IMG/VR virus record: IMGVR_UViG_2671180846_000035
Length of the DNA stretch: 19,993 bases
Strand: one strand, 5' to 3'
From: a virus
Taxonomy: Duplodnaviria > Heunggongvirae > Uroviricota > Caudoviricetes
This document shows positions 1 through 19,993 of the stretch, one piece after another; the first letter of the stretch is position 1; each line of letters begins with the position of its first letter. Position numbers and translations under genes: made by a program. Below the pieces are notes generated by a model, which made no database searches, had not been told where the DNA came from, and worked only from the letters and a program-made list of their open reading frames with translations.

Positions 1-699
1 TTATGATGATGCCGGTGCATTTATCTCCAGCACCAGACTTTCTATCTCAACGCCATACGCTGCATTTTTTGTAACATCCGTCAGCGTCAGCGCATTCAGT
101 CCCAGTGTCAGACTGTCTTTTATAACCTGGAATGCCGGGCCAGCCACTCCATTCAGTTTCGGAGTAACCGTGGCACTGCCGGCGGTGAACACCAGCTCCA
201 GCGTCTGCCAGTCGTTACCGTAATCGCCGAACTCCCCCAGCTTCGTGTTTCCGGCTTTCCTGTGATGCATCAGATTCACTCTGCCGTCAGTGGTCTGAGT
301 GAAGTACGACATCAGGAACGGATTACCGGTACCCGTCATCGCCACACCATCAGGAACGGGAGCATCCGTATACAGATAAATCCCCAGCCCGAACTGATTG
401 TTGGTCAGTGCGCCTGACAGGCGGAACTTACAGGTCAGTCTGCCGCCCTGTGTCAGCAGGGTAATTGCGTCATCCACCGGATGCGTCAGGGACCAGGTTT
501 TATTGCTCTGCTTGGTGATCTTAAATACACCATCTGACAACTGAATTCCGCCATCCTTAATGCTCCAGCCCTGCGCAGCAGCCTCTCCGGCTGCCGGCAG
601 CAGGGAGATTGTGCGAACGGACGTATCTGCAGACGGACCCGATGGCGTGTTGCCGCCGGGCGAGGGTTTGATTTCCGGTGCCTTACCACTGATGAAGGC
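1..699 (-). CDS. C-terminal portion of the NanS-p-like esterase (putative carbohydrate-binding domain); frame is open from the N gap to the stop at 1-3
   Basis: The 179-aa ORF 1..540 starts at a TTG, and the same frame reads without a stop back to the N run at 699 (linker-like ...PEIKPSPGGNTPSGPSADTS...). Size and position fit the C-terminal domain of prophage NanS-p esterases. Joining to the upstream ORF across the gap is inference. Confidence 0.5.
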   Translation of the reverse strand, partial: AFISGKAPEIKPSPGGNTPSGPSADTSVRTISLLPAAGEAAAQGWSIKDGGIQLSDGVFKITKQSNKTWSLTHPVDDAITLLTQGGRLTCKFRLSGALTNNQFGLGIYLYTDAPVPDGVAMTGTGNPFLMSYFTQTTDGRVNLMHHRKAGNTKLGEFGDYGNDWQTLELVFTAGSATVTPKLNGVAGPAFQVIKDSLTLGLNALTLTDVTKNAAYGVEIESLVLEINAPASS

Positions 700-749
700 N
701 NNNNNNNNNNNNNNNNNNNNNNNNNNNNNNNNNNNNNNNNNNNNNNNNN
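700..749. other. Assembly gap (run of 50 N)
   Basis: Run of n characters in the sequence; true length and content unknown, so frame across it is undefined. Confidence 0.95.
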
Positions 750-1912
750 TTCAGAATAGCGGTTGCCATACGATCCGGAATAATGCTCCTGCGCGCCCAT
801 GAACTGAAATGCGTCTGGCGATTTGATGATACCCAGTTTTTGTTCGTTCGGGATGCCGAACCGTAATATCCCTCACTTGCAGCATCCGGATCTTCCGTTG
901 GTGCGTTGGTGGAGGTATTGTTGCCACTACCATCGGTCAGGAATGGCACAAAGAAAACGTTGTCGCTCTCCCTGTTTTTGTACGCCCCGTAAATGGTGTC
1001 GTACTGCGTGCCGTAGGTGTTTTTCCAGTAATACGTCGTGTCACCACAAATCCATGGCACACTTGCCGCTCTGCCTCCATGACACTGCGTGTTAAACTCG
1101 GTAATGTCCGCACGAAACTGTTTCAGCATGGCCGCAAACAGCGGAGGTTGCTGTGAGTACGTAGCGGCGCTCATGTCAAATTCGCCCTGCATCCAGCATA
1201 CGGCCAGCAGCATGTTTTTTGGGTTTTTCTGCAATGCGGCCTTCGTGCGCAAAATCAGGTCCTGATATAAAGGTTTACCCACACCCCAGCGAGCCGAATC
1301 CTGACTGGCTCCTGTGGACTCGCTGAATGTCCCCTCCGCGCCCTGGGTGAATGCCGAACCACCACGACAGCATGGAACCAGTAAAATCCCGGCATTCTGT
1401 GGAATGTAAGGCAACAGGCGTTTGGCAATATGCAAGCCCTGTCCGACACAGCCATACTGCCCTTTGCTCAGGTCTGCATTCGGGTGATTCAGTACGCTCA
1501 TATCCTGAACATCATGCAGGCAGTGATCTGCCGGAATGATGTCGTTAAATGCGCATGCTTTACCACCGGGAGTCACTGTGTTGCGACGGGCCAGTTGCTT
1601 AATGCGTGGGTGGGGCGCATCGTAAGAATCCGGCAGCGGCATTCCCTCACCATATGACATGGCATTGGATTGACCAGCAAGTACCACCACGTAATACCAC
1701 TCCGGCACGCTGCCGTGCTGGGGGGAATCAGGTGAGATGTCTGTAGTGCCATCGGCCACCATTGCCTGCATTAGATACCACGGGGTGCCGGGTTCGTAGG
1801 CAACCCGCGTCTCCCCCTGAAGATGCCACCCTTTCGCAAGATGTTCATTCACCTTTTGAGTCAGTTCAGCCTGTGTCATGGCTGTAATCAGTGCAAAGTT
1901 CTTACTGGTCAT
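750..1912 (-). CDS. nanS: Sialate 9-O-acetylesterase, NanS-p-like (N-terminal DUF1737-like segment plus SGNH hydrolase), 5' portion up to the gap
   Basis: ORF 683..1912 (409 aa). Motifs VLAGQSNAMSYGEG, APHPRIKQLAR, FNDIIP, CCRGGSAFT, CWMQGEFD match my recollection of E. coli NanS/YjhS and prophage NanS-p. ATG at 1912 overlaps the lysC stop (ATGA). Confidence 0.7.
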
Positions 1913-6878: not shown

Positions 6879-8630
6879 ATGATTCAGGACGCTTTTGTGC
6901 GCCAGCGTGCGCGGCAACTTTACTGGCAGGGTTATCCGCCCGCAGAAATATCACGTCTGATGGGAATAAACCCGAACACGATTTATGCGTGGAAAAAACG
7001 CGACCAGTGGGATGAAACGCCACCCGTGCAGCGTGTCACGCAGTCCATCGATGCGCGCCTCATCCAGCTTACTGAAAAACAGAATAAAACAGGCGGTGAC
7101 TTTAAGGAAATAGACCTGCTGACCCGGCAGCTTAAAAAACTGCATGATGGCCAGCCGGATGCGACGGTCACAGGAAAGAAAGGCCGGGCGAAAAAACTCA
7201 AAAATCATTTCACGCCGGAACAGATTGCCGCACTGCGGGAAAAAATCATCAGCAGGCTGGAGTGGCATCAGCGGGGCTGGTTTGACTCCCTGACCCTTTG
7301 CAGGGAAGCCGGGATACGTAACAGGATGATCCTGAAATCCCGACAGATTGGGGCGACCTGGTATTTTGCACAGGAAGCTCTGCTGATGGCGCTGCGTGAC
7401 GATGTGGCGCAACCTTACCAGCGTAACCAGATTTTTTTGTCTGCGTCGCGTCGTCAGGCGTTCCAGTTTAAAAGCATTATTCAGAAGGCCGCGGCTGAAG
7501 TTGATGTGGAGCTGAAAGGGGGCGATAAAATCATCCTCTCCAACGGCGCAGAGCTGCATTTTCTCGGCACTTCTGCTGCGTCGGCACAGTCCTATACGGG
7601 CAATTTTTATTTTGATGAATTTTTCTGGGTCAGTCGCTTTGCTGAACTGCGCAAGGTGGCTGGCGCTATGGCAACCCTCAGCGGACTGCGGCGCACCTAC
7701 TTCTCCACGCCATCCACCGAAACGCACGAGGCATACGCCTACTGGAACGGCGACCGCTGGAACGAGAAAAAGGCCACGCATAAACGCCAGCGTTTTTCTG
7801 TGGACTGGAAAACGCTGCATAACGGGCTTATCTGCCCTGACCGGACGTGGCGGCAAATTGTCACGCTGGAAGATGTGGTCAATCACGGCTGGAAACACAC
7901 CGATATCGACGAAATTCGTGATGAAAACACCGAAGACGAGTTCCTCAATCTCTATATGTGTGAGTTTGTCCGCGAAGGGGAATCGGCATTTAACCTGAAT
8001 ATCCTGATTGGCTGCGGTGTTGACGGATACGACGACTGGAAAGACTGGAAACCTTTTGCTCCCCGCCCGATGGGGAATCGTCCGGTATGGATTGGGTATG
8101 ACGCAAACGGCAGTAGTGGCAACGGCGACAGCGGCGCTGTGTCCGTGGTGGTTCCTCCGGCTGTTCCTGGTGGCCGTTTTCGAACGGTGGAGACGCGACG
8201 CGTTCAGGGGCTGGAGTTTGAAGAACAGGCCAGAGTCATTGAAGAGTTCACGTATCGCTACAACGTGGAACACATCGGCATTGATGTGACGGGCGGGAAC
8301 GGGGAGGCTGTTTATCAGATAGTGAAACGGTTTTTCCCTGCTGCTATTCCGTACACCTTCACGCTGTCATCAAAACGGTCGCTGGTACTGAAAATGCTGC
8401 AAATAATGCGTGCCGGGCGGTGGGAATACGATCGCGCCGAACGCGAGCTGGTCGCGGCCTTTAACGCCGTGCGTAAGGTGAAAACACCGGGCGGCTTTAT
8501 CACTTACGAAACGGACCGCGCGAGGGGGATCAGCCACGGCGACCTTGCGTGGGCAACCATGCTTGCTGTCATTAACGAACCGATTGGCGGCGAAGGAGAA
8601 AACGAGCGTTTCACGGTTATGGAGTTCTGA
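6879..8630 (+). CDS. P: Terminase ATPase (large) subunit (P2 gpP family)
   Basis: 583 aa; N-terminal MIQDAFVRQRARQLYWQGY...ISRLMGINPNTIYAWKK is terminase-like; GGGGGAG Shine-Dalgarno; divergent from O as in P2. Confidence 0.9.
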   Translation: MIQDAFVRQRARQLYWQGYPPAEISRLMGINPNTIYAWKKRDQWDETPPVQRVTQSIDARLIQLTEKQNKTGGDFKEIDLLTRQLKKLHDGQPDATVTGKKGRAKKLKNHFTPEQIAALREKIISRLEWHQRGWFDSLTLCREAGIRNRMILKSRQIGATWYFAQEALLMALRDDVAQPYQRNQIFLSASRRQAFQFKSIIQKAAAEVDVELKGGDKIILSNGAELHFLGTSAASAQSYTGNFYFDEFFWVSRFAELRKVAGAMATLSGLRRTYFSTPSTETHEAYAYWNGDRWNEKKATHKRQRFSVDWKTLHNGLICPDRTWRQIVTLEDVVNHGWKHTDIDEIRDENTEDEFLNLYMCEFVREGESAFNLNILIGCGVDGYDDWKDWKPFAPRPMGNRPVWIGYDANGSSGNGDSGAVSVVVPPAVPGGRFRTVETRRVQGLEFEEQARVIEEFTYRYNVEHIGIDVTGGNGEAVYQIVKRFFPAAIPYTFTLSSKRSLVLKMLQIMRAGRWEYDRAERELVAAFNAVRKVKTPGGFITYETDRARGISHGDLAWATMLAVINEPIGGEGENERFTVMEF

Positions 8631-9676
8631 TGAGCAGAAAAAATAAAAAAGTGCGCATGAGTTCACGCATTGATCTCGCTGATGCGCTCAGGAAAGAATC
8701 ATCGCTCAGTGCATTCACATTTGATGGTCCTTATCGCCTGACCGGGCATGACCTGCTGGACAATATGTACTGTGCTGATAACGGACGGTGGTATGAAACC
8801 CCGGTGGACTGGTACGGTCTGGCAAGAGCAGCCCGGCAAACGTCCTGGCATCAGTCTGCGCTTTACTTTAAGCGCAATGTATTACTCGGTTGCTACATCC
8901 CGCACCCGCTGCTTTCCCGGCAGGATTTCTCGGCGCTGGCGCTGGACTGGTTTGTGTTCGGTAACGCATTCCTTGAGCTTAGAAGCAATATGCTCGGCGA
9001 ACCGCTTAAATTACGGCACGCCCTGGCGAAATACATGCGACGCGGAAGCGATCTTGAATCATGGTGGTATGTGCAGGATGGCAAGGACGCGTTCCAGTTT
9101 CGCCCTGGCAAAGTGTGCCACCTGATGAATCCGGATATTAACCAGGAAATCTACGGCATGCCGGAATATCTTGGCGCATTACTCTCGGCCAGCCTTTCTC
9201 ATTCGGCGGACATGTTCAGAAAACTGTACTACGACAACGGATCCCACGCCGGGTGCATCATCTACATCGGTGCAGCGCAGGTAAACCGCGAAAGCATGGA
9301 CTCCCTGAAAGAAACGTTACAGGGCGCGCGTGGTGGTGGTGCGTTTAAAAACGTACTCATCCATGCGCCCAACGGGGGCAAAGAAGGTGTGCAAATTTTG
9401 CCGTTCCAGCAGATCACTGCAAAGGATGAGTTCATGAATGTTAAGGCGGCATCCCGTGATGATGTGCTGGCTGCGCACCGCGTTCCGCCGCAACTGATGG
9501 GGGCGATGCCGGGCGAAAAAAGTGCGTTTGGTGATGTGGAGAAGGCCGCGCGGGTTTACGCAATTAACGAGCTGATGCCCGTTATGGAGGCCATGAAGCA
9601 CATCAATGACTGGCTTGGCGAAGAGGTGATCCGCTTTAACCCTTACGCACTGCTAGATACCCAGCCCACATCCTGA
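8630..9676 (+). CDS. Q: Portal protein (P2 gpQ family)
   Basis: 348 aa; start overlaps the P stop (TGATG); last gene before the cos-side intergenic region, as in P2. Confidence 0.9.
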   Translation: MSRKNKKVRMSSRIDLADALRKESSLSAFTFDGPYRLTGHDLLDNMYCADNGRWYETPVDWYGLARAARQTSWHQSALYFKRNVLLGCYIPHPLLSRQDFSALALDWFVFGNAFLELRSNMLGEPLKLRHALAKYMRRGSDLESWWYVQDGKDAFQFRPGKVCHLMNPDINQEIYGMPEYLGALLSASLSHSADMFRKLYYDNGSHAGCIIYIGAAQVNRESMDSLKETLQGARGGGAFKNVLIHAPNGGKEGVQILPFQQITAKDEFMNVKAASRDDVLAAHRVPPQLMGAMPGEKSAFGDVEKAARVYAINELMPVMEAMKHINDWLGEEVIRFNPYALLDTQPTS

Positions 9677-10165: not shown

Positions 10166-10756
10166 TCAGGTGTTATTTTTATCTGTCGTCAGTGGGCTAA
10201 ACCATCCACGATTTACATCGCAGGACTGATGCGTTCTGTCCTCGTGTTTCTCCTGCCACAATGCTTTTCCGCCAGCCTTTATGATGGCTCTTTCAACATC
10301 CCGCTCGTATCGCAAGGGCTGAAATACGTCATTAATGAAATATTCGCTTATGTCCGGAAGCGATACTGCAAAATTATTTGTTTGTTGCGCCGTCCTGCTA
10401 TGCAGCAAAGCGGCATACTTTAATGCGTCCTGTGCTTTCTGGAATTTAAGTGCATAGTCAGTGGCGATTTTTTCCAGTTCAGCGATTCGGTTGTCTTTGG
10501 TTTCCAGCCAATCAAGTAGCGCCAATACTTCAGGATCCCCGACATCCAACACTGTTACGCGTGATTTTTCATAATGTTCGTCGGCAAGAGTTCGGCCAAT
10601 TTTGAAATCTCCATCATCACCATAACCGGAGCAGGCATAAACAACCTGTGCTCCAGATATTCGCTGAATTGACATTTCCTCGCCGCAAATAGGGCATTTC
10701 GGTACTGGCACAGGTGAATAACGTTCACGTAATGCCTGATAGTTGATTTCGCTCAT
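10166..10756 (-). CDS. Ead/Ea22-like family protein with N-terminal zinc-ribbon motif
   Basis: 196 aa; CPICGEEM...YACSGYGDDGDF resembles a Cys4 zinc ribbon; the coiled-coil segment LLDWLETKDNRIAELEKIA resembles Ea22-like proteins; AAGGAG Shine-Dalgarno. Confidence 0.5.
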   Translation of the reverse strand: MSEINYQALRERYSPVPVPKCPICGEEMSIQRISGAQVVYACSGYGDDGDFKIGRTLADEHYEKSRVTVLDVGDPEVLALLDWLETKDNRIAELEKIATDYALKFQKAQDALKYAALLHSRTAQQTNNFAVSLPDISEYFINDVFQPLRYERDVERAIIKAGGKALWQEKHEDRTHQSCDVNRGWFSPLTTDKNNT

Positions 10757-10819
10757 TAAGTCGTTCTCCTTGTTTATGTTCTGAGGTGGAGAGCAGGGCG
10801 AACTCGCCCTGATGTTTTG

Positions 10820-11131
10820 TTATTCAGGAAATAACGCCCGGATATTTCCGGCCATCTGACTGGTTATCTGTGCGGTTGATACTGGCTGTGATGCGGGGCG
10901 TTCTGTCCTGGTTTGTGTCACTGATAACGCTTCATCACCAGCCCATGCAGCCAGTCGATAAGCCTCTGCCGGATTCATTTTCAGAAGTGCCAGCCCGGCC
11001 AGAAAAGCCACGCGTTGGCCGCTTTTGCGGGCTTCTGGTGTAAGGCTGTCCAGCCAGGCGCATGCTTCTCCTTCGTTCTTGACGGCGGTGGGCTTCAGAT
11101 AGAAACTTATCCGTCTGGTTGGAGTCGTCAT
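10820..11131 (-). CDS. parR: ParR-like centromere-binding protein (103 aa from the internal ATG)
   Basis: RRISFYLKP...LDSLTPEARKSGQRVAFLAGLALL aligns with my recollection of R1 ParR (RRTIAFKLNP...LDSIPQGERSRLNRAALTAGLAL). The ATG at 11131 has a strong AAGGAG Shine-Dalgarno and sits 4 nt after the parM stop. Confidence 0.65.
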   Translation of the reverse strand: MTTPTRRISFYLKPTAVKNEGEACAWLDSLTPEARKSGQRVAFLAGLALLKMNPAEAYRLAAWAGDEALSVTQTRTERPASQPVSTAQITSQMAGNIRALFPE

Positions 11132-11135
11132 TGGT

Positions 11136-12095
11136 TTACTCCTTGTCCATTGCGTACAGCCCATTAACCAGAGCAAACTGTGGCACCCCGTCCGCGATGA
11201 AAGTCGCATTAACTCCGCAGGCTTCGCGGATAGCGGGTGCCACAATCTCCGCCCCTCCACCGACAACCATCACCCGCCCGTAACCCGAAAAACCCGCCAG
11301 CGCGCGGATCACGCGTTGTTTCAGTGTTTCTTCCTTTTCACGAATAACCGCCATCAGGCTGGCGTAATGCGCGTCATTGTGGATGTGCTGGCGCAGCCAG
11401 GCTTCATCATGGCGATGTTCGATAATGGTATTGGCGATGTGGTGACTGGTGCGCATACCGTTAGTGGCCATCACCGACAGTACGGCATCGGCCATCAGAG
11501 AAACGCCCACGTGTGGATCGCAAAACACCTGGCTGATACCTGCCAGTTGCCCCTGAACCTTTGCCACATCCAGAGTGGTTCCGCCCAAATCCACAATCAG
11601 CAGGGATTCAAACGGACTCATGTCAGCCAGTGCCTTAAAGCCAGCCGGAATGGATTCAGGCATAACCCGTACGTTACGGATAGTGAATGCTTCGCCGTTC
11701 TGGTACTCCACCGGGCGCATGACGTTCGCTTTTTTGCGGTTGATGTTGGCCATGTCCGGCTGTGCGTTTGTATCGAAATACTCGCTCAGTGGCAGGGTGA
11801 CAACCACATCCACTTCCTGTGGTGTGATGCCTGATTTGACCAGCGCGTGATGAATGGCAATTATATTCACATCGCTGTACTGGTATTGCGTGTCGGTCGT
11901 CTGGACAAAGCGATCGCTGACCGGATCAAAACCATAGCGCACGCCATCAAGCATGTAGTTCGCGGGCTGCGTGCCACCGAACGGCGCAGACCATTCCGAC
12001 TTGAAGCTGTTCGGGCTGATGGCGTTGCGGCGTTCGCCGTTCTCAGTCCATGCCAGCTTGATGTTGGTGGAGCCGTCGTCGATACAAATTTTCAT
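11136..12095 (-). CDS. parM: ParM/StbA-like actin-type segregation ATPase
   Basis: 319 aa. Motifs IDDGSTNIKLAW, ISPNSFK, YQYSDVNIIAIHHAL, VMPESIPAGF, LIVDLGGTTLDV, GVSL, FSGY..VMVVGGGAE and LVNGLY are collinear with plasmid R1 ParM as I remember it. Confidence 0.85.
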   Translation of the reverse strand: MKICIDDGSTNIKLAWTENGERRNAISPNSFKSEWSAPFGGTQPANYMLDGVRYGFDPVSDRFVQTTDTQYQYSDVNIIAIHHALVKSGITPQEVDVVVTLPLSEYFDTNAQPDMANINRKKANVMRPVEYQNGEAFTIRNVRVMPESIPAGFKALADMSPFESLLIVDLGGTTLDVAKVQGQLAGISQVFCDPHVGVSLMADAVLSVMATNGMRTSHHIANTIIEHRHDEAWLRQHIHNDAHYASLMAVIREKEETLKQRVIRALAGFSGYGRVMVVGGGAEIVAPAIREACGVNATFIADGVPQFALVNGLYAMDKE

Positions 12096-12099
12096 GTCG

Positions 12100-12230
12100 C
12101 TTTTCCTTGTGTTGATTAATTAATCGGTTACAGGATTTTTAAATCCCGCTTTTGCCTGTTTTGTGCGCGCTTCATATATCGCGGCACGTTTTTTGCTCAT
12201 TTACGGGATTTGTGAGTCCCGTTTCTGTCT
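12100..12230. promoter_or_regulatory. Candidate parMR promoter/centromere-like region (paired imperfect palindromes)
   Basis: Two related 18-bp dyads, cAGGATTTttAAATCCcg (about 12131-12148) and CGGGAtttgtgagTCCCG (about 12204-12221), plus repeated TTTTGCCTGTTTT-like T-rich motifs upstream of parM; partly inside the 3' end of A. Confidence 0.3.
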
Positions 12231-15012
12231 GTTTTTTGTTTCCACTGGTCAGGCTACCCCGCAGCAGGTCTGCTTTGCGGTGGGCGCGTTCAGTGGTTTC
12301 ACTGATTCTCTGTGCGTGCACTGCGTCACGGATGGCGCGCAGCATGTCAGAAAGCACGGTAACGGGGGTTTTCATGGTGTTCTGGTCCTGCTGAAGTGTG
12401 GATGCCAGGTGTGCGGCGGCTTCGGGGTCTGATGCCCCCAGCTGTTCCAGATAGCTGGCGACCGGGTTATGGCGGATCTCCGTGCTGCTTACGCCGTGAT
12501 TACGGCTCAGGCGCTGCCAGAGTTGCGTGATTCGGCTGTCCGGGCGGGTATCTGGTTTGCGTACAATTTCAAATCCCTGCGGTGCAATGATGCTGCCGTC
12601 AACGTACAGACTGCCGCCCCGTAACAGGTGCTGCATCTGCTGTTCACCGATATGCAGGCCGAGAGATTCAGCAGACTCCCGCCATTCTTTAGCGAGTAAC
12701 TCGTGATTATCAGGCAAAGGCCGTGGCTGTTTGCGGCTCTGTGTCCAGTTCTGCATTTCATCACTGCTGTTTTTTGCCTGTTTGTCACGCAGCGAACGCA
12801 TCAGCGCCCGGCGTTCGTGCCGTTTCAGTGAGCGCATCCATTCATTCACGTCAACGCCGTCAGGAAGCTGCGGCCACGGTGCTGGCCTTTCTTCCGGCTG
12901 TTCTGTCCCGTTGTTGTCCGTTTCCTGTACACGGGGACAGTTATTGCCACGAGTCCAAGGGGCGGCAGGGCCGCCCTGAAGGTCAAAACCATTTTCGCGG
13001 GTGCTGTCTTCCGCTTCCGGTTTACGTCTTACCAGCTTCCAGTTATCCGGGTGCGTGCACACACGGGAGGATTCCCCGATGAGTGGTGACCAGATCCCGT
13101 AAATCTGTACGCTCTGTTCGCCGTAATCGTTCAGCTCATCTGCGAGGTCGTAGGCGGTGCGAATCAGGTAGTCTTTGCGTGGAACAAGTACGCCGCCCTG
13201 TTTCTCAATGTAGGTGGCAAAACACCCGGCATCAGCGGCAGCGAGTACCGCATCCATTGCATCATCCTTCAGCCGTTGTGGGCCTTCCGGGTTGCGTGCC
13301 ATCTGGCTGGCAAGGCGGCGGAGTTCACGCCATACCTGACGGGAGGGGATGCCAAAGAACTGGAACTGGCGGACCCGGTGAAGGCGTGCCCAGCCGATGG
13401 CGCGTTCCACGCTCTCGGCCATTGATTTTCCGGTTTCGTGGTCAACGCGTGGCTTGCCCGTTTTCGGGTCGATGCCATCCACGGCGCGGCTGTCCAGGTT
13501 CTTTCCGATGTAGGTGGCGATGTAGCTGGTTGGCGTGCCTTTTGAGCCGTCGACATACTCCACCTTAAAGCGCGGAGTAATATCATTGCCCAGCTCGTGG
13601 CGGTCTTCCTGAATGGCAATATCGCGGGTGTGGGACACAATGGTGTCGATTTCTTCCGGATGAGCAAAGACCATCATATGCCAGTGCACGGTGCCGTCAT
13701 GGTGAGGCTCCACCGTGCGGATGCCATACCAGCGCAGGCCGTCGCGGTTCAGTTTCTTGCGGACCGCCGCAAAAAACGTGTTAACCAGGTAATCGCTGGA
13801 GTCGCGCATGGTGGCCCCGTTCCATTTGGGATTCGGATGACCGTTCTCTGTTGTGGCGTGGTATTTTGACGGGCAGGTGACAGTCAGAAACACCGCTCTG
13901 TCGCCACGGGCTTCGGCCAGAAGTTCCAGCCCCTTCATGGTGGCCATCATTTCTGCCTTACGGTGAATCGGGTTACTTACTCCCGCGTAATACACTGTCT
14001 CGAGATCAATCGTGAACCCGTCTTCGTTTTCCAGCATGAAACTTTTCAGGAAATCGCGTGTTTTCTCGCGCTGTGCGCGAAACTCGCTTAACGCGTCCTG
14101 GCTCAGATAGGGTGATGTTTTTCTGGAAACCAGACAGGCGGCGCGGAGTTGTTCTTCTCTCCACTCGCAACGTAACAGCCACAGTTTGCGTTTCCACCAT
14201 TCCGCACAGGTCAGGCGAAGGATTGCGCCCGGCAGCAGCTCCGTGTCCGGTTCATTCCTCCGGTCTTTGTCTGTTGTCAGAGCGTCATAATGTGGAGGCA
14301 TAGCGTGCAGGTGTAACGCCATGCGGGCCAGCATCTGATACGCCTTCAGCGTTACATCCATGGTCAGCTCGCCATCGGTCGCGCCAAAGCCATCGCAGAG
14401 TTTTTCAAAAGTGCCACTGAACATCGCCGCCGTCATGGTGGCCAGCGTCTGTATCTGGTGTTTGTTGAGCTGCGGCAGGTAAAGCAAATCGTCCAGGCGT
14501 TCGCGTCCGGCAAGGGAGCGATAGCCCGGTGTCAGCCAGCGGCTGTCGGTGCGGTCCAGACGTTCGAATATTTTGCGCAGGGTTCCGCGCGCGTAGCGTT
14601 CAGCCTGCCAGCTCTTTTTGCCTTTCTGACGATCGGCTTCCTGCTTCTTGCGCAGAAAAGAGAGGTGGCGGCTCAGAGGTTCACGCAGATAAACGGGAAG
14701 CACCTTCAGTGTGGCAAAAGCACGGGCCACCGGGTCTTGTTCTGTTGCCTGACGCTTGCTGATGATGCTTTGTGCCAGCTTTTCACGCTGTCCGGCTTCC
14801 TCAAGGGATGCCATGAGTTTTTTACCCACGGTGGATTGTGCGAAAAAGGCTTCTTCCTTCGCTTCCTGTTCTTCCTGTGCCCTTTTGTTTGCCTCAAGGT
14901 AGTAACGGATGGCGCGTTGCAGGTCGGTTTCAGTTTCCTGCCTGCGCTCCGTAAATCTGGCCGGATCAATGGCTGGCCGTGGTTCATTCCAGCTCCATGC
15001 AAACGCACTCAT
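12172..15012 (-). CDS. A: Replication initiation endonuclease (P2 gpA family, rolling-circle HUH type)
   Basis: AWSWNEPR near the N-terminus, VEPHHDGTVHWHMMVFAHP (HUH motif) and YIATYIGKNLD (catalytic Tyr region) match P2 A. ATG at 15012 overlaps the upstream gene stop (ATGA); the track ORF extends to 15039. Confidence 0.9.
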   Translation of the reverse strand: MSAFAWSWNEPRPAIDPARFTERRQETETDLQRAIRYYLEANKRAQEEQEAKEEAFFAQSTVGKKLMASLEEAGQREKLAQSIISKRQATEQDPVARAFATLKVLPVYLREPLSRHLSFLRKKQEADRQKGKKSWQAERYARGTLRKIFERLDRTDSRWLTPGYRSLAGRERLDDLLYLPQLNKHQIQTLATMTAAMFSGTFEKLCDGFGATDGELTMDVTLKAYQMLARMALHLHAMPPHYDALTTDKDRRNEPDTELLPGAILRLTCAEWWKRKLWLLRCEWREEQLRAACLVSRKTSPYLSQDALSEFRAQREKTRDFLKSFMLENEDGFTIDLETVYYAGVSNPIHRKAEMMATMKGLELLAEARGDRAVFLTVTCPSKYHATTENGHPNPKWNGATMRDSSDYLVNTFFAAVRKKLNRDGLRWYGIRTVEPHHDGTVHWHMMVFAHPEEIDTIVSHTRDIAIQEDRHELGNDITPRFKVEYVDGSKGTPTSYIATYIGKNLDSRAVDGIDPKTGKPRVDHETGKSMAESVERAIGWARLHRVRQFQFFGIPSRQVWRELRRLASQMARNPEGPQRLKDDAMDAVLAAADAGCFATYIEKQGGVLVPRKDYLIRTAYDLADELNDYGEQSVQIYGIWSPLIGESSRVCTHPDNWKLVRRKPEAEDSTRENGFDLQGGPAAPWTRGNNCPRVQETDNNGTEQPEERPAPWPQLPDGVDVNEWMRSLKRHERRALMRSLRDKQAKNSSDEMQNWTQSRKQPRPLPDNHELLAKEWRESAESLGLHIGEQQMQHLLRGGSLYVDGSIIAPQGFEIVRKPDTRPDSRITQLWQRLSRNHGVSSTEIRHNPVASYLEQLGASDPEAAAHLASTLQQDQNTMKTPVTVLSDMLRAIRDAVHAQRISETTERAHRKADLLRGSLTSGNKKQTETGLTNPVNEQKTCRDI

Positions 15013-15398
15013 GGCTGGTATCCCGTCACGCGCTGCCACTCCTGTGAGAAGAGGGCGGAAAGGCGGTTAAATTCAGCGGAGTATTCACTCAGCGAGGCAC
15101 ACCCGCCAGCAGTGCGATGCGCCAGCATTGCCGCAAATATGGAGGCCGGGGAGTCGTAATACGCCAGCAGTGATTCGCCGTGTGGTGTCAGGCAGTGCAA
15201 CGCCAGCCCGTGTGGTGTGAAGTCCACGCGGTAGCAGTCGTCTACTGTGAAATAAAGGGTGTCTGCATTCTCCGGTTTTGTGGTGCGTGCTCTGTTGTCA
15301 CGACCACGGATGTAGAGATCAAATAATCCCTGAAGAACGGGAGCCAGACGGGTGTCCTGTGTGCGCACCCATCTTGTGAAGTCATGAGCGTCAATCAT
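15009..15398 (-). CDS. Hypothetical early-operon protein (129 aa)
   Basis: ORF with the right orientation, immediately upstream of A and translationally coupled to it; no family recognised. Confidence 0.5.
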   Translation of the reverse strand: MIDAHDFTRWVRTQDTRLAPVLQGLFDLYIRGRDNRARTTKPENADTLYFTVDDCYRVDFTPHGLALHCLTPHGESLLAYYDSPASIFAAMLAHRTAGGCASLSEYSAEFNRLSALFSQEWQRVTGYQP

Positions 15399-17538: not shown

Positions 17539-17943
17539 ATGAAAAATGATATTGGTCAGCGGTTGCGTGAGGAAAGGGAAAGATTGGGACTTAGTCAAGT
17601 TGCCATGAGCGACATTGGTGGAGTCAAAAAGCTAACTCAGCTTAGATATGAGAAAGGAGATAGCTTTCCTGATGCTGCGTATTTGGCAGCGCTGTCTCGT
17701 TTTGGCCTTGATGTTCAGTATGTTGTGTTGGGAATTCACTCACCTGAAACTTATAACGATGATGAGCAGGAGTTGATTACTCGCTTTCGAGCAGCTTCGT
17801 TAGATGTGAAAAACGCGGTGATCGGGGCTTTAAAAGGTGCGATCAGTGAAAAGGAAACTCAGCCATCAGGACGTGAGTTAAATATTTCTGGTGGTAATAA
17901 CCGTATCGCTGGTCGTGACTATAACGAAACTAAGGGTAGGTGA
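17539..17943 (+). CDS. Immunity repressor, HTH XRE/Cro-CI family
   Basis: 134 aa; N-terminal HTH (GQRLREERERLGLSQVAMSDIGGVKKLTQLRYEKG); transcribed towards int, opposite to the early operon, as for P2 C / 186 cI. Confidence 0.75.
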   Translation: MKNDIGQRLREERERLGLSQVAMSDIGGVKKLTQLRYEKGDSFPDAAYLAALSRFGLDVQYVVLGIHSPETYNDDEQELITRFRAASLDVKNAVIGALKGAISEKETQPSGRELNISGGNNRIAGRDYNETKGR

Positions 17944-17958
17944 TAGTAGGGAGGTGAC

Positions 17959-18609
17959 ATGGCCGTCAACTCAAACGGTTCAAACAATCGCGTTGCTGGG
18001 CGTGATTTTCACGAAAAGAATATTCAGATAGAGCGATATGATGGTTCTCATACCGTCAATATCGCAATCCCTTCGAATAATGATGATGACGATCGCCCTT
18101 TGCTTAAGGCTCAGCGTAAGGAGCTAAATAGCTTGGTTGCTGCTATTGCAGAAGCTAGCAATACTGAAGCGTTTATTATTTGGCAAAAAGTACATGCGGA
18201 GATTGGTGTAGCTGGTATTGATGATATGACAGTAAATCAATATAAAACAGCGGAGAGTTTTCTGCATGCAATGCTTGAGCGATGTAAAGATCATGATGCC
18301 TGTAAGACTCTTGTAAGTTTATTACTACGTAACAGTGAAGACTGTGGACTTCGACAAAAACTTCTGCGGTATTGCCATATCAATTTCGGTACAGGACGTT
18401 TAAACGATCTTACTCGTTCTCAGTTACAGTCTGCATTGTCGTGGTTAGAGCAACAATCGGCATCAAGTCACACAGAGAGTTCGGCCTTACCAGAAGTTCG
18501 ACTTCGTGCTTCAGAATTAATCCGACTTTATCCAAAAGAAATAATATTCTTTATCTGCGTAGGGGTTTTGGTAGGCGGTGCCATTTCTAGGGTGTTTTTT
18601 AATTTGTAA
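17959..18609 (+). CDS. Tail-anchored membrane protein of unknown function (216 aa)
   Basis: C-terminal hydrophobic segment IIFFICVGVLVGGAISRVFF; GGGAGG Shine-Dalgarno; AT-rich relative to the structural genes; inserted between repressor and int. Confidence 0.6.
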   Translation: MAVNSNGSNNRVAGRDFHEKNIQIERYDGSHTVNIAIPSNNDDDDRPLLKAQRKELNSLVAAIAEASNTEAFIIWQKVHAEIGVAGIDDMTVNQYKTAESFLHAMLERCKDHDACKTLVSLLLRNSEDCGLRQKLLRYCHINFGTGRLNDLTRSQLQSALSWLEQQSASSHTESSALPEVRLRASELIRLYPKEIIFFICVGVLVGGAISRVFFNL

Positions 18610-18638
18610 TCTTACTTGAGCTAAATTGAGGTAATGAT

Positions 18639-18986
18639 ATGAAAGTAAAAAAGGTTCAACTATTAGTTACTTTTTTATCTATGTTTTCTTTTTCCGCCGT
18701 CGCAATGCCTTTTAAAACTATTGAACGTGAGAGTTTCAATGGGGTATGGCCATTTAATACTGATGAGGTTCAATTACAGTGTCTTGATGGTAATCCTTAT
18801 GTGATGAATTTTGACGATAATAAGTTATATGCGCTTACAGGTTTAGCTCGAATAAAAGGTAAAACATTTGGTGCGTTACCGTTAGATAACAATAATCCAT
18901 TTTGGCTAGATAATGATGCCGCCCCAGGGTTAAAAAAGAGTCTGGGGGATGTCACTAAGGCTGCATTTGATTTATGTGATAAGTAA
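18639..18986 (+). CDS. Small secreted/periplasmic protein with signal peptide (115 aa)
   Basis: N-terminal signal peptide MKVKKVQLLVTFLSMFSFSAVA; two Cys in the mature part; GAGG Shine-Dalgarno; AT-rich. Confidence 0.6.
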   Translation: MKVKKVQLLVTFLSMFSFSAVAMPFKTIERESFNGVWPFNTDEVQLQCLDGNPYVMNFDDNKLYALTGLARIKGKTFGALPLDNNNPFWLDNDAAPGLKKSLGDVTKAAFDLCDK

Positions 18987-18991
18987 CTAAA

Positions 18992-19993
18992 ATGTCGGTT
19001 CGTAAGATTCCATCAGGTAAATGGCTTTGCGAATGTTATCCCTACGGGGCATCGGGAAAACGCATTCGTAAACAGTTTGCGACAAAAAGTGAGGCGCTCT
19101 CTTATGAGCGCCGTTTAATGAATAGTAGAGTTGGAGACGAGTTTCAAGATGGTTCTGGTCCTCGTCTTTCTGAGTTGATTGCTCGTTGGTTTGAGATGTA
19201 CGGTAAAACCTTGTCCTCTGGTGCAGAGCGCAAAGTCAAACTTGAGGCGATTTGTTCCAGGCTGGGGGATCCATTTGCTTCTCAGTTTGACAAAAATATG
19301 TTTGCTACTTATCGGGAAAGAAGGCTATCAGGAGAATGGAATCCCAAGGGGAAGAAAAAACTTAGTGAAGCAACCGTTAATCGCGAGCAGTCATATCTAC
19401 ATGCTGTTTTTGCCGAACTGAAGCGCCTTGGGGAGTGGTCTGGTGAAAACCCCCTGACTGGTATTCGCAAGTTTCGTGAGGAAGAAAAGGAACTGGCGTT
19501 TCTGTATGTAGATGAGATTGAACGCCTTCTGATTGCGTGTGATGAGTCACGGAATAAAGATTTGGGGGTTGTTGTCCGTATTGGGCTTGCGACTGGTGCT
19601 CGGTGGAGTGAAGCTGAAGGATTAAAGCAATCTCAAGTACTGCCCGGTCGAATCACATTTGTTAAAACTAAAGGAAAGAAGAACCGCACTGTACCGATTT
19701 CACCTCAATTGCAGGCTATGCTTCCTCAAAAACGAGGAGCGCTATTTTCACCATGTTATGAGGCTTTTGACGCTGCAATTAAGAGAGCGAAGATCGAGCT
19801 TCCTGATGGGCAATTAACTCATGTGCTACGTCACACGTTTGCCAGTCATTTTATGATGCGGGGCGGAAATATTCTTGTGTTGCAAAAAATACTGGGGCAT
19901 AGCGATATAAAAATGACTATGCGTTATGCGCATTTTGCTCCAGGTCATTTAGAGGCTGCTGTTGAATTGAACCCTTTTGACAATAGAGGGTAA
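18992..19993 (+). CDS. int: Tyrosine integrase, P2 Int family
   Basis: 333 aa; GKRIRKQF..KSEA, ..GARWSEAEGLK.., RITFVKTKGKKNRTVPIS, HVLRHTFASHFMMRGGNILVLQKILGH and MTMRYAHFAP match my recollection of P2 Int, including the catalytic R..HxxR..Y. Stop codon is at the window end. Confidence 0.9.
   Translation: MSVRKIPSGKWLCECYPYGASGKRIRKQFATKSEALSYERRLMNSRVGDEFQDGSGPRLSELIARWFEMYGKTLSSGAERKVKLEAICSRLGDPFASQFDKNMFATYRERRLSGEWNPKGKKKLSEATVNREQSYLHAVFAELKRLGEWSGENPLTGIRKFREEEKELAFLYVDEIERLLIACDESRNKDLGVVVRIGLATGARWSEAEGLKQSQVLPGRITFVKTKGKKNRTVPISPQLQAMLPQKRGALFSPCYEAFDAAIKRAKIELPDGQLTHVLRHTFASHFMMRGGNILVLQKILGHSDIKMTMRYAHFAPGHLEAAVELNPFDNRG

What the first reader, a model, noticed from the sequence alone, without database searches (positions are those of the whole stretch)
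10820..12230. R1-type parM/parR actin-like partition cassette inside an integrative P2-like prophage, in the old/tin position
P2-like phages integrate with Int and are not known to me to need active partition. Here a clear ParM homolog and a ParR homolog sit directly downstream of gene A, between A and cos, with paired palindromes upstream that could act as a parC-like site. This locus is where P2 carries the old and tin accessory genes and is a known hotspot for accessory and defence cargo. The cassette could stabilise an episomal form, exert incompatibility against ParMR plasmids, or be a repurposed cytoskeletal module.
Basis: partly seen in the sequence, partly recalled or inferred. Interest (0 to 1): 0.75.

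Follow-up and report, generated by a model that had tools for sequence, protein, structure and literature searches.

The report
Known ParMR partition cassette, P88-like prophage
An integrated P2-type E. coli prophage really does carry an intact actin-like plasmid-partition module (parM, parR and a likely centromere), but this is a routinely annotated, already published feature of the P88-like phage lineage, found in about a quarter of E. coli genomes, and its role has never been tested.

Summary
Window 11136-12095(-) encodes a full-length ParM (Pfam StbA_N 4e-82 plus the ParM C-terminal domain 1e-68; E 1e-92 to R1 ParM structures). Window 10820-11131(-) encodes a 103-aa ParR (Plasmid_stab_B, 3e-23). 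Two conserved 16-bp palindromes lie 73 bp apart just upstream of parM.

The cassette is annotated as ParM/partition protein in phage P88 and every other Xuanwuvirus record. It occurs in 1308 of 5426 complete E. coli genomes. Rousset et al. [quoted passage not shown]

It is not mobile hotspot cargo. It is fixed next to one gpA type: the same 14 phage records carry both. It keeps the same position in Escherichia, Salmonella and Hafnia prophages, and parM is under strong purifying selection (dN/dS 0.02-0.15). The variable cargo starts downstream of parR.

Most likely it is a working type II segregation module that acts on extrachromosomal circular phage DNA during gpA-driven replication. SXT/R391 srpMRC and CGP3 AlpAC are the precedents. 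A stable plasmid prophage is less likely. No experiment on this cassette turned up.

The parts
11136..12095 (-). parM: 319-aa actin-fold ATPase, the motor or filament protein of a type II partition system
   Evidence: Pfam StbA_N 3.7e-82 and ParM C-terminal domain 1.3e-68. Full-length alignment to R1 ParM 1mwk, E 1.2e-92, with the ATP-binding motifs conserved. phrog_691 'partition protein' 7e-90. dN/dS 0.02-0.15 against relatives.
10820..11131 (-). parR: 103-aa adaptor or centromere-binding protein. It has an N-terminal ribbon-helix-helix-type domain, a hypervariable linker and a conserved C-terminal tail (NIRALFPE).
   Evidence: Pfam Plasmid_stab_B 3.1e-23 over residues 6-76. phrog_2515 1.7e-57. 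Family profile gives pB171 ParR 2jd3 as best PDB hit, E 0.014. 24% identity to R1 ParR, with the C-terminal N..L motif aligned. N- and C-termini are invariant in 18 relatives. The monomer AlphaFold model is low-confidence (pLDDT 58), with helices at 20-29, 32-52, 54-61 and 86-100 and a disordered linker at 65-85.
12128..12165 (-). Proximal parC-like repeat in the gpA-parM intergenic region. It contains the palindrome GGGATTTAAAAATCCT (12132-12147) and overlaps a weak candidate promoter (TTTAAA-17-ATTAAT, read by eye, below the scanner's threshold).
   Evidence: Direct repeat D1 and inverted repeat I1. Half-sites are conserved and the centre varies in 11 loci, including the Hafnia lineage. Identity to the Hafnia locus is 23/25 and 19/25 in the two 25-nt windows covering the repeat, against 10/25 in the spacer window. 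The pattern is unique in the window and in a full phage genome.
12201..12238 (-). Distal parC-like repeat inside the last codons of gene A. It contains the palindrome GGGACTCACAAATCCC (12205-12220).
   Evidence: It is an island of conservation (18/25 and 21/25) within an otherwise poorly conserved gpA 3' end when compared with the Hafnia lineage.
12172..15039 (-). Gene A (rolling-circle replication endonuclease) of the long P88 type. It lies directly upstream and is probably co-transcribed with parMR.
   Evidence: Pfam Phage_GPA 8.9e-130. The 14 phage records with at least 86% identical gpA are exactly the 14 with ParM; all other gpAs are at most 44% identical and their matches stop near residue 811-817. 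No terminator-like site on the minus strand lies between A and parM.
10166..10756 (-). Variable accessory gene (Ead/Ea22-like, 196 aa) between parR and the presumed cos/portal region. This is the true hotspot cargo at this locus, not part of the par module.
   Evidence: Pfam Ead_Ea22 1.1e-31. This stretch is the part not shared with most P88-like phages (two-piece matches covering about 74%). Other genes occupy the position in P88, pC-Ec2-KPC and other loci. No PADLOC hit.
10794..10811 (.). GC-rich hairpin immediately after the parR stop. It marks the boundary of the conserved module.
   Evidence: One search lists it as terminator-like on the + strand only. On the coding (-) strand no T-run follows.

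Best explanation
This is an intact type II (ParMRC, R1-like) DNA segregation module. It is a vertically inherited, fixed part of the replication module of P88-like (Xuanwuvirus) P2-type temperate phages, not mobile cargo.

Proposed mechanism, inferred by homology:
- ParR dimers bind the two palindromic sites just upstream of parM. One site lies in the last codons of gene A and the other in the A-parM spacer.
- The ParR C-terminal tail captures the ends of ATP-dependent ParM filaments.
- Filament growth pushes apart or positions copies of the circular phage genome.

The module follows gene A with no intervening terminator and no strong promoter of its own, so it is probably expressed with the early/replication operon. 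It would then act when the phage DNA is extrachromosomal and being copied by gpA, that is after infection or after excision. Its effect would be to distribute or position replicating circles. That could serve efficient replication and packaging, as for CGP3 AlpAC. It could also ensure that dividing cells inherit a copy before integration or lysis, as for SXT/R391 srpMRC. It probably does not maintain a long-term plasmid prophage.

Shown: homology, intact motifs, conserved synteny, purifying selection and conserved repeats. Inferred: DNA binding, filament formation, timing and biological role.
For: - Protein identity.
- Functional constraint: parM dN/dS is 0.02-0.15, for example dN 0.026 and dS 0.63 against the Hafnia lineage. 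ParM stays 94% identical there while gpA drops to 58%. The ParR N-terminal strand region and C-terminal tail are invariant across 18 relatives.
- Fixed synteny gpA-parM-parR in E. coli, E. albertii, Salmonella and Hafnia prophages, including ones with different portal/terminase types.
- One-to-one association with the P88-type gpA in the phage collection. 1279 of 1309 matching E. coli records hold at least 80% of the cassette.
- The nearest plasmid ParMs are only about 53% identical, so this is not a recent plasmid capture.
- Candidate centromere: two conserved palindromes with variable centres, unique in the phage genome, forming islands of conservation.
- Operon structure: no minus-strand terminator after A, and no sigma-70 match of at least 9/12 upstream of parM.
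- Precedents: srpMRC stabilises the excised, rolling-circle-replicating SXT/R391 ICE and has a small centromere of four 13-bp repeats (PMC4489591). AlpAC links circular CGP3 phage DNA to actin-like filaments and is needed for efficient phage replication (PMC4446434).
- The element is integrative: an integrase lies at 18992-19993, the identical cassette sits in a chromosomal prophage beside yecA, and 1454 of 1456 places are chromosomal.
Against: - My literature searches found no experiment on this cassette.
- The candidate parC has only two sites, unlike R1's ten iterons. ParR binding is untested.
- The palindromes would also fold as RNA hairpins (z = -2.97), so they could be RNA or transcriptional elements.
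- The absence of a separate promoter is a negative result from a crude scanner. R1-type par operons are normally autoregulated from a promoter within parC, and a weak TTTAAA-17-ATTAAT candidate overlaps the proximal palindrome.
- No benefit of partition to a lytic or briefly excised phage has been demonstrated for any P2-like phage. P2 and 186 do without such a module.
- The ParR structure prediction was low-confidence.
Confidence: 0.55

Rival explanations
1. The cassette lets these phages persist as stable low-copy plasmid prophages (a facultative phage-plasmid lifestyle). Rousset et al. 2022 offered this speculation.
For: - PMC9122126 states it as a possibility.
- One complete assembly holds the entire phage, integrase included, as a 34,461-bp circular 'plasmid' (NZ_CP148288.1).
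- The module is a complete plasmid-type par system.
Against: - 1454 of 1456 places in complete E. coli genomes are chromosomal.
- The other 'plasmid' records are prophages or fragments inside large replicons, or mis-assigned chromosome pieces.
- The phage identical to the circular record is integrated in another strain. An induced or excising prophage can also assemble as a circle.
- The annotated genome shows no replicon other than gpA rolling-circle replication.
- parMR appears to sit in the repressor-controlled early operon.
Confidence: 0.15
2. The proteins have been repurposed for a host-directed or non-segregation role. Examples would be a cytoskeletal function like cyanobacterial CorMR, or a fitness factor for the lysogen. 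The palindromes would then serve only as an operator.
For: - Chromosomal ParMR systems with non-segregation roles exist (bioRxiv 10.1101/2025.06.27.661541 and PMC12270681, listed).
- The phiSM homologue was listed as a 'fitness' gene (PMC6456863).
- The candidate centromere has only two ParR sites.
Against: - Strict linkage to the replication gene, not to the lysogeny-expressed or cargo regions.
- ParR keeps both the DNA-binding end and the ParM-binding tail.
- The 'fitness' label in PMC6456863 is annotation-based only.
Confidence: 0.12
3. The cassette is accessory cargo of the old/tin hotspot and acts against competitors. It would exclude ParMRC plasmids or phages, either by incompatibility or as a defence system.
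For: - It lies between gpA and the portal gene, the locus defined as a diversity and defence hotspot (PMC9122126).
- Rousset's table counts it among the hotspot arrangements.
Against: - No PADLOC hits.
- The parC-like DNA occurs in no genuine plasmid par locus in PLSDB; the only six records with it are copies of this prophage.
- The upstream repeats of the closest plasmid ParM (TTTCTATAT type) are unrelated.
- ParR is only 24-26% identical to plasmid ParRs.
- The cassette is invariant within the lineage, while the neighbouring gene varies.
Confidence: 0.05
4. The two palindromes are not a centromere. They are RNA-level or transcriptional elements, such as a processing site, an attenuator or an operator only, at the A-parM junction. 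The true parC would lie elsewhere or be absent.
For: - The region folds better than shuffles as RNA (z = -2.97).
- There are only two sites.
- No compensatory base changes were seen that would point either way.
Against: - The half-sites are conserved while the central bases vary. One variant is a perfect 16-bp palindrome with no loop (Hafnia lineage). This fits binding by a dimeric protein.
- No T-run follows on the transcribed strand.
- In known ParMRC and srpMRC systems the centromere lies directly upstream of the motor gene (PMC2241845 abstract; PMC4489591).
- No other copy of the motif exists in the phage genome.
Confidence: 0.13

Closest known systems
R1/NR1 ParMRC (StbA/StbB), the type II plasmid partition system
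   Same: - ParM is full length, about half its residues match R1 ParM in the end-to-end alignment, and all nucleotide-binding motifs are present.
- ParR belongs to the same Pfam family, and its C-terminal tail aligns with R1 ParR's.
- The order is repeats, then parM, then parR, with parR translationally coupled to parM.
   Different: - It sits in an integrative P2-type prophage, not on a plasmid.
- ParR is only 24% identical.
- The candidate centromere is two 16-bp palindromes 73 bp apart, one inside the upstream gene. R1 has two blocks of five iterons (PMC2241845 abstract).
- It is probably read through from gene A rather than being a stand-alone autoregulated operon.
- The nearest plasmid ParM is about 53% identical.
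srpMRC of SXT/R391 integrative conjugative elements (Carraro et al. 2015, PMC4489591)
   Same: - A ParM-type partition module carried by an element that normally lives integrated.
- It acts on a transient excised circle that replicates by a rolling-circle enzyme.
- It has a small centromere of a few direct or inverted repeats upstream of the motor gene.
   Different: - SrpR lacks homology to known ParR proteins, whereas the ParR here is a clear Plasmid_stab_B member.
- The host element is an ICE, not a phage.
- srpMRC function has been shown experimentally; here nothing has been tested.
AlpAC/alpS of Corynebacterium glutamicum prophage CGP3 (Donovan et al. 2015, PMC4446434; PMC5539076)
   Same: - An actin-like protein and a DNA-binding adaptor encoded by an integrated prophage.
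- The adaptor binds sites in the operon's upstream region.
- Expression is early after induction, and the system is needed for efficient replication of the circular phage DNA.
   Different: - The host is Gram-positive and the prophage is large and cryptic.
- Sequence relatedness between AlpC and this ParM was not tested here.
- Experimental evidence exists for AlpAC, none for the P88-type cassette.
The same cassette as already catalogued: P88 gp17/gp18, phiSM parM/parP, and 'StbA + Plasmid_stab_B' in Rousset et al. 2022
   Same: - ParM is 94-100% identical across the relatives compared (98-100% within the intact Xuanwuvirus phage records), in the same position.
- Protein accessions in Rousset's Table S5A (WP_000686485 and WP_000211282) are the ParM and ParR of a P88-like copy fetched here.
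   Different: Nothing essential. The window's copy differs only in the ParR linker variant and the downstream cargo gene.
ParM/StbA of the P1-like phage-plasmid D6
   Same: It is the only other phage record in the collection with a ParM homologue (47.5% identity).
   Different: From my own knowledge, D6 is a plasmid prophage, for which partition is expected. The window's phage integrates.

Membership tests
Type II (ParMRC) partition system | Actin-fold ATPase of the ParM/StbA family with intact nucleotide-binding motifs | tested here: met
   Pfam StbA_N 3.7e-82 and ParM C-terminal domain 1.3e-68. End-to-end alignment with R1 ParM shows IDDGSTNIKL, MPESIPAG, DLGGTTLD and GGGAE conserved.
Type II (ParMRC) partition system | Small ParR adaptor (ribbon-helix-helix type) encoded immediately downstream of parM | tested here: met
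   Plasmid_stab_B 3.1e-23. The start codon lies 4 nt after the parM stop. The best PDB profile hit is pB171 ParR 2jd3, weak at E 0.014. The fold itself was not confirmed: the monomer model has pLDDT 58.
Type II (ParMRC) partition system | ParR C-terminal tail that binds ParM | tested here: inconclusive
   The C-terminal motif (x-N-I-R-A-L-F-P-E) is invariant or nearly so in the lineage. It aligns with the C-terminus of R1 ParR, with N and L invariant. Binding cannot be tested with these tools.
Type II (ParMRC) partition system | Centromere (parC) of repeated ParR-binding sites upstream of parM that includes the operon promoter | tested here: inconclusive
   Two conserved palindrome-bearing 38-nt repeats lie upstream of parM. 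The architecture differs from R1's 2 x 5 iterons. No promoter reached the scanner's threshold. ParR binding is untested.
Type II (ParMRC) partition system | Carried by, and stabilising, a low-copy extrachromosomal replicon | tested here: not met
   For location, 1454 of 1456 places in complete E. coli genomes are chromosomal, and the identical cassette lies in a prophage beside yecA. Stabilising activity is not testable here. The cassette is therefore a sequence-level member of the family in an atypical carrier.
Type II (ParMRC) partition system | ATP-dependent, dynamically unstable filaments that push DNA apart | not testable with these tools
   This needs polymerisation assays and imaging.
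P2 old/tin-locus hotspot cargo (defence or accessory systems) | Presence or absence varies among otherwise closely related phages; genes match defence families | tested here: not met
   The cassette is present in all 14 phage records with this gpA type. 1279 of 1309 matching E. coli records hold at least 80% of it. No PADLOC hit. The adjacent gene (10166-10756) is the variable one.
P88-like phages (genus Xuanwuvirus, Peduoviridae) | Nucleotide-level similarity across the genome to P88 and gene order of the P2 type | tested here: met
   The window matches P88, 520873, Chuche, PhiR44_2 and phiSM at 95-97% identity over 63-82% of its length. The taxonomy line of NC_026014 gives the genus.

The most novel reading that the evidence does not exclude
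The ParMRC module is an integral part of how this large P2-type lineage replicates. After infection or SOS induction, ParM filaments anchored by ParR at the two palindromes would move gpA-generated circular genomes apart. That would raise replication and packaging efficiency or the fraction of daughter cells that become or remain lysogens. It could also permit a short-lived plasmid-like carrier state. If so, this would be the first demonstrated role for a type II partition system in the life cycle of an integrative phage of Gram-negative bacteria, and it is present in about a quarter of E. coli genomes.
Probability: 0.4. Interest if true: 0.55.

Novelty: already known. Interest (0 to 1): 0.27.

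Why it matters
The cassette is very common. It occurs in 24% of complete E. coli genomes and also in Salmonella, E. albertii, Citrobacter, Cronobacter and Hafnia prophages. It is strongly conserved, and my literature searches found no functional test of it.

Showing what an actin-like segregation machine does for an integrating phage would clarify how P2-type genomes are handled while extrachromosomal. It would also extend the ICE (srpMRC) and CGP3 (AlpAC) precedents to a major enterobacterial phage family.

As a scan finding it adds little. The genes are routinely annotated, and their presence at this locus, with the same speculation, is already in print.

Tried and rejected
- **ParR fold.** The AlphaFold monomer prediction from an 18-sequence alignment gave pLDDT 58. 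That is too poor for a fold search, so none was run. Single-sequence phmmer of ParR against the PDB found nothing. Only the family profile reached pB171 ParR, and weakly.
- **Reach of the genome scan.** The search for related loci with ParM on species-representative genomes returned only three near-identical loci, one of them a probable contaminant labelled Vagococcus. It did not reach distant relatives. I ran no further search on ParM because the verdict would not change.
- **The circular 34.5-kb 'plasmid' record.** I tried to decide whether it reflects a real episome. That strain's chromosome is not in the E. coli collection. The search only showed that the identical phage is integrated in another strain.
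- **Diversification of specificity.** I considered whether ParR/parC had diversified, as incompatibility groups would. This was rejected: the DNA-binding end of ParR and the palindrome half-sites are conserved, and only the linker varies.
- **Decaying relic.** Rejected on dN/dS.
- **Structured RNA.** Rfam found nothing in the window.
- **Literature.** Searches on CP-933T and P88 gave no functional data on the cassette.
- **NCBIfam.** Only sub-threshold hits.
Full report
**What is there**

The window is a P2-type prophage of the P88 lineage (genus Xuanwuvirus, Peduoviridae). It matches phages 520873, P88, Chuche, PhiR44_2 and Citrobacter phiSM at 95-97% identity over 63-82% of its length. The relevant genes are:

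| Feature | Coordinates | Strand | Evidence |
|---|---|---|---|
| gene A (955-aa ORF) | 12172-15039 | - | Phage_GPA 8.9e-130 |
| parM (319 aa) | 11136-12095 | - | see below |
| parR (103 aa) | 10820-11131 | - | see below |
| Ead/Ea22-like gene (196 aa) | 10166-10756 | - | Ead_Ea22 1.1e-31 |
| terminase large subunit | 6879-8630 | + | annotated as such in P88 and strain E2865 |
| portal | 8630-9676 | + | annotated as such in P88 and strain E2865 |

An integrase gene lies at 18992-19993. An identical copy of the cassette sits in a chromosomal prophage beside yecA in E. coli E2865.

**Check of the observation**

- ParM matches Pfam StbA_N (3.7e-82) and the ParM C-terminal domain (1.3e-68). It aligns end to end with the crystal-structure sequences of R1 ParM (E 1.2e-92). 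The phosphate-binding and adenosine-binding motifs are intact.
- ParR starts 4 nt after the parM stop, behind an AAGGAG. It matches Plasmid_stab_B, the R1 ParR/StbB family, at 3.1e-23.
- PHROGs already holds both proteins as 'partition protein' families.
- A profile of 18 ParR relatives picks pB171 ParR (2jd3) as its best PDB match, but weakly (E 0.014). The monomer structure prediction was poor (pLDDT 58). It only shows helices where a ribbon-helix-helix plus C-terminal helix would put them, with a disordered linker.
- The upstream 'paired palindromes' are real. Two 38-nt direct repeats, 73 bp apart, each contain a 16-bp palindrome (12132-12147 and 12205-12220).
- The pattern covering both palindromes occurs twice in the window against 0.02 expected (pattern chosen after seeing the sites). 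It occurs nowhere else in a complete phage genome of this type.

**Is it new? No.**

- Phage P88 annotates the two genes as 'plasmid segregation protein ParM' and 'partition protein'. All other records of the genus carry and mostly annotate them.
- In 5426 complete E. coli genomes the cassette is found in 1308. Of 1456 places, 1454 are chromosomal, and PGAP names both genes.
- Rousset et al. 2022 analysed exactly this gpA-gpQ locus. [quoted passage not shown]
- Their supplementary table lists 'StbA + Plasmid_stab_B' arrangements with the same protein accessions I found in a P88-like copy.
- The phiSM homologue was also listed, as a 'fitness' gene, in PMC6456863.

My searches found no experimental work on the cassette.

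**What the comparison adds**

The cassette is not mobile cargo of the hotspot.

- In the phage collection, the 14 records whose gpA is at least 86% identical to the window's are exactly the 14 that carry ParM.
- All other P2-like gpAs are at most 44% identical. Their matches stop near residue 811-817, so residues from about 812 to 955 have no counterpart in them.
- ParR relatives down to 52% identity, from E. coli, E. albertii, Salmonella and Hafnia, all lie in the order gpA-parM-parR. This holds even in prophages with a different portal/terminase type.
- The part that changes between phages is the stretch after parR: Ead/Ea22-like here, other genes elsewhere.
- The nearest plasmid ParMs are only about 53% identical, while the phage-borne ones are 94-100% identical to each other.

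Selection on the three genes differs:

| Gene | dN/dS | Identity to Hafnia lineage |
|---|---|---|
| parM | 0.02-0.15 | 94% |
| gpA | 0.16-0.33 | 58% |
| parR | 0.18-0.52 | 72% |

The variation in ParR is concentrated in a linker. The N-terminal strand region (PTRRISFYLKP) and the C-terminal tail (NIRALFPE) are conserved, mostly invariant, in 18 relatives. That tail aligns with the C-terminus of R1 ParR.

**The candidate centromere**

Across 11 loci the half-sites GGGAY/RATCC are conserved while the central bases vary. In the Hafnia lineage one site is a perfect 16-bp palindrome.

Against that lineage the two repeats are islands of 72-92% identity. They are separated by a spacer at 40% and preceded by a poorly conserved gpA 3' end. 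This pattern fits binding by a dimeric protein.

The architecture differs from R1's two blocks of five iterons (PMC2241845 abstract). It resembles the small srpC of SXT/R391, which has four 13-bp repeats.

The sites would also form RNA hairpins (z = -2.97), so an RNA-level role cannot be excluded. The parC-like DNA occurs in no genuine plasmid par locus in PLSDB. The repeats upstream of the nearest plasmid parM are unrelated. Both points argue against the incompatibility idea, and PADLOC finds nothing.

**How it most likely works**

By homology, ParR dimers bind the two palindromes, their tails capture ParM filament ends, and filament growth moves copies of the circular phage genome apart.

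No terminator-like site on the coding strand lies between gene A and parM. No promoter upstream of parM reaches the scanner's threshold. A weak TTTAAA-17-ATTAAT candidate, which I read by eye, overlaps the proximal palindrome.

I therefore infer that parMR is expressed with the early replication operon. It would act while the genome is extrachromosomal and being replicated by gpA, after infection or excision. There are two experimentally supported precedents:

- srpMRC stabilises the excised, rolling-circle-replicating SXT/R391 ICE (PMC4489591).
- AlpAC ties circular CGP3 prophage DNA to actin-like filaments and is needed for efficient replication (PMC4446434).

A stable plasmid prophage seems less likely:

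- Almost all copies are chromosomal.
- An integrase is present.
- No second replicon is annotated.

One complete assembly does hold the whole phage as a 34,461-bp circle. The identical phage is integrated in another strain. I could not examine the first strain's chromosome, so this datum is unresolved.

**Verdict**

The proteins and repeats are real, and the module is almost certainly functional. It is an already known and routinely annotated feature of a very common phage lineage. What remains open is its biological role, which needs the experiments listed under next steps. Interest as a scan finding is low to moderate.

Noticed in passing
L002 (NZ_CP148288.1, whole record 1-34461): A complete E. 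coli assembly (strain Z1323PEC0009, cat) holds the entire P88-like phage, integrase included, as a 34,461-bp circular 'plasmid'. The identical phage is chromosomal in strain Z1323HEC0067. It is unresolved whether this is a true episome or induced phage DNA assembled as a circle.
   Followed up: partly
window 12172-12600 (gpA C-terminus); whole gene 12172-15039: gpA of this lineage is 913-955 aa. Residues from about 812 to 955 have no counterpart in other P2-like gpAs, which are at most 44% identical and whose matches end near residue 811-817. This gpA type co-occurs one-to-one with parMR. No Pfam domain lies beyond residue 518.
   Followed up: partly
window 10856-10942 (ParR residues about 64-92): The ParR linker is hypervariable in sequence and length between otherwise near-identical cassettes. 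The N-terminal and C-terminal ends stay invariant. ParR identity falls to 52-57% while ParM stays above 98%.
   Followed up: partly
window 683-1912 (-) and 1-540 (-): A 409-aa SASA-family sialate esterase with a DUF1737 N-terminus lies beside a DUF6645 gene inside the P2-type prophage. It is about 90% identical in DNA to yjhS/nanS-p genes of lambdoid and Stx phages. It looks like cargo exchanged between unrelated phage families.
   Followed up: no
window 10166-10756 (-): The Ead/Ea22-like protein has a possible N-terminal zinc ribbon (weak hits) and occupies the truly variable slot between parR and the presumed cos region. P88, pC-Ec2-KPC and other loci carry different genes there. No PADLOC hit.
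   Followed up: partly
L003 (NZ_MK439959.1, locus 13900-37800): The IncC KPC plasmid pC-Ec2-KPC carries an IS26-bounded, rearranged fragment of a P88-like prophage that includes gpA-parM-parR. A conjugative plasmid has therefore acquired this par module.
   Followed up: no
L005 (NZ_JBQPOM010000071.1): A contig labelled Vagococcus sp. WN89Y encodes a ParM 98% identical to the E. coli phage protein. This is probably contamination or a mislabelled enterobacterial contig.
   Followed up: no
window 17539-18986 (+): Between the HTH repressor-like gene (17539-17943) and the integrase lie a 216-aa membrane protein gene and a DUF2511 gene. The stretch has low G+C, 0.35-0.46. It is probably lysogeny-expressed cargo at a third hotspot.
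   Followed up: no
window 10794-10811: A GC-rich hairpin lies right after the parR stop. A T-run follows only on the + strand, so it would terminate transcription coming from the cos side rather than parMR transcription.
   Followed up: no
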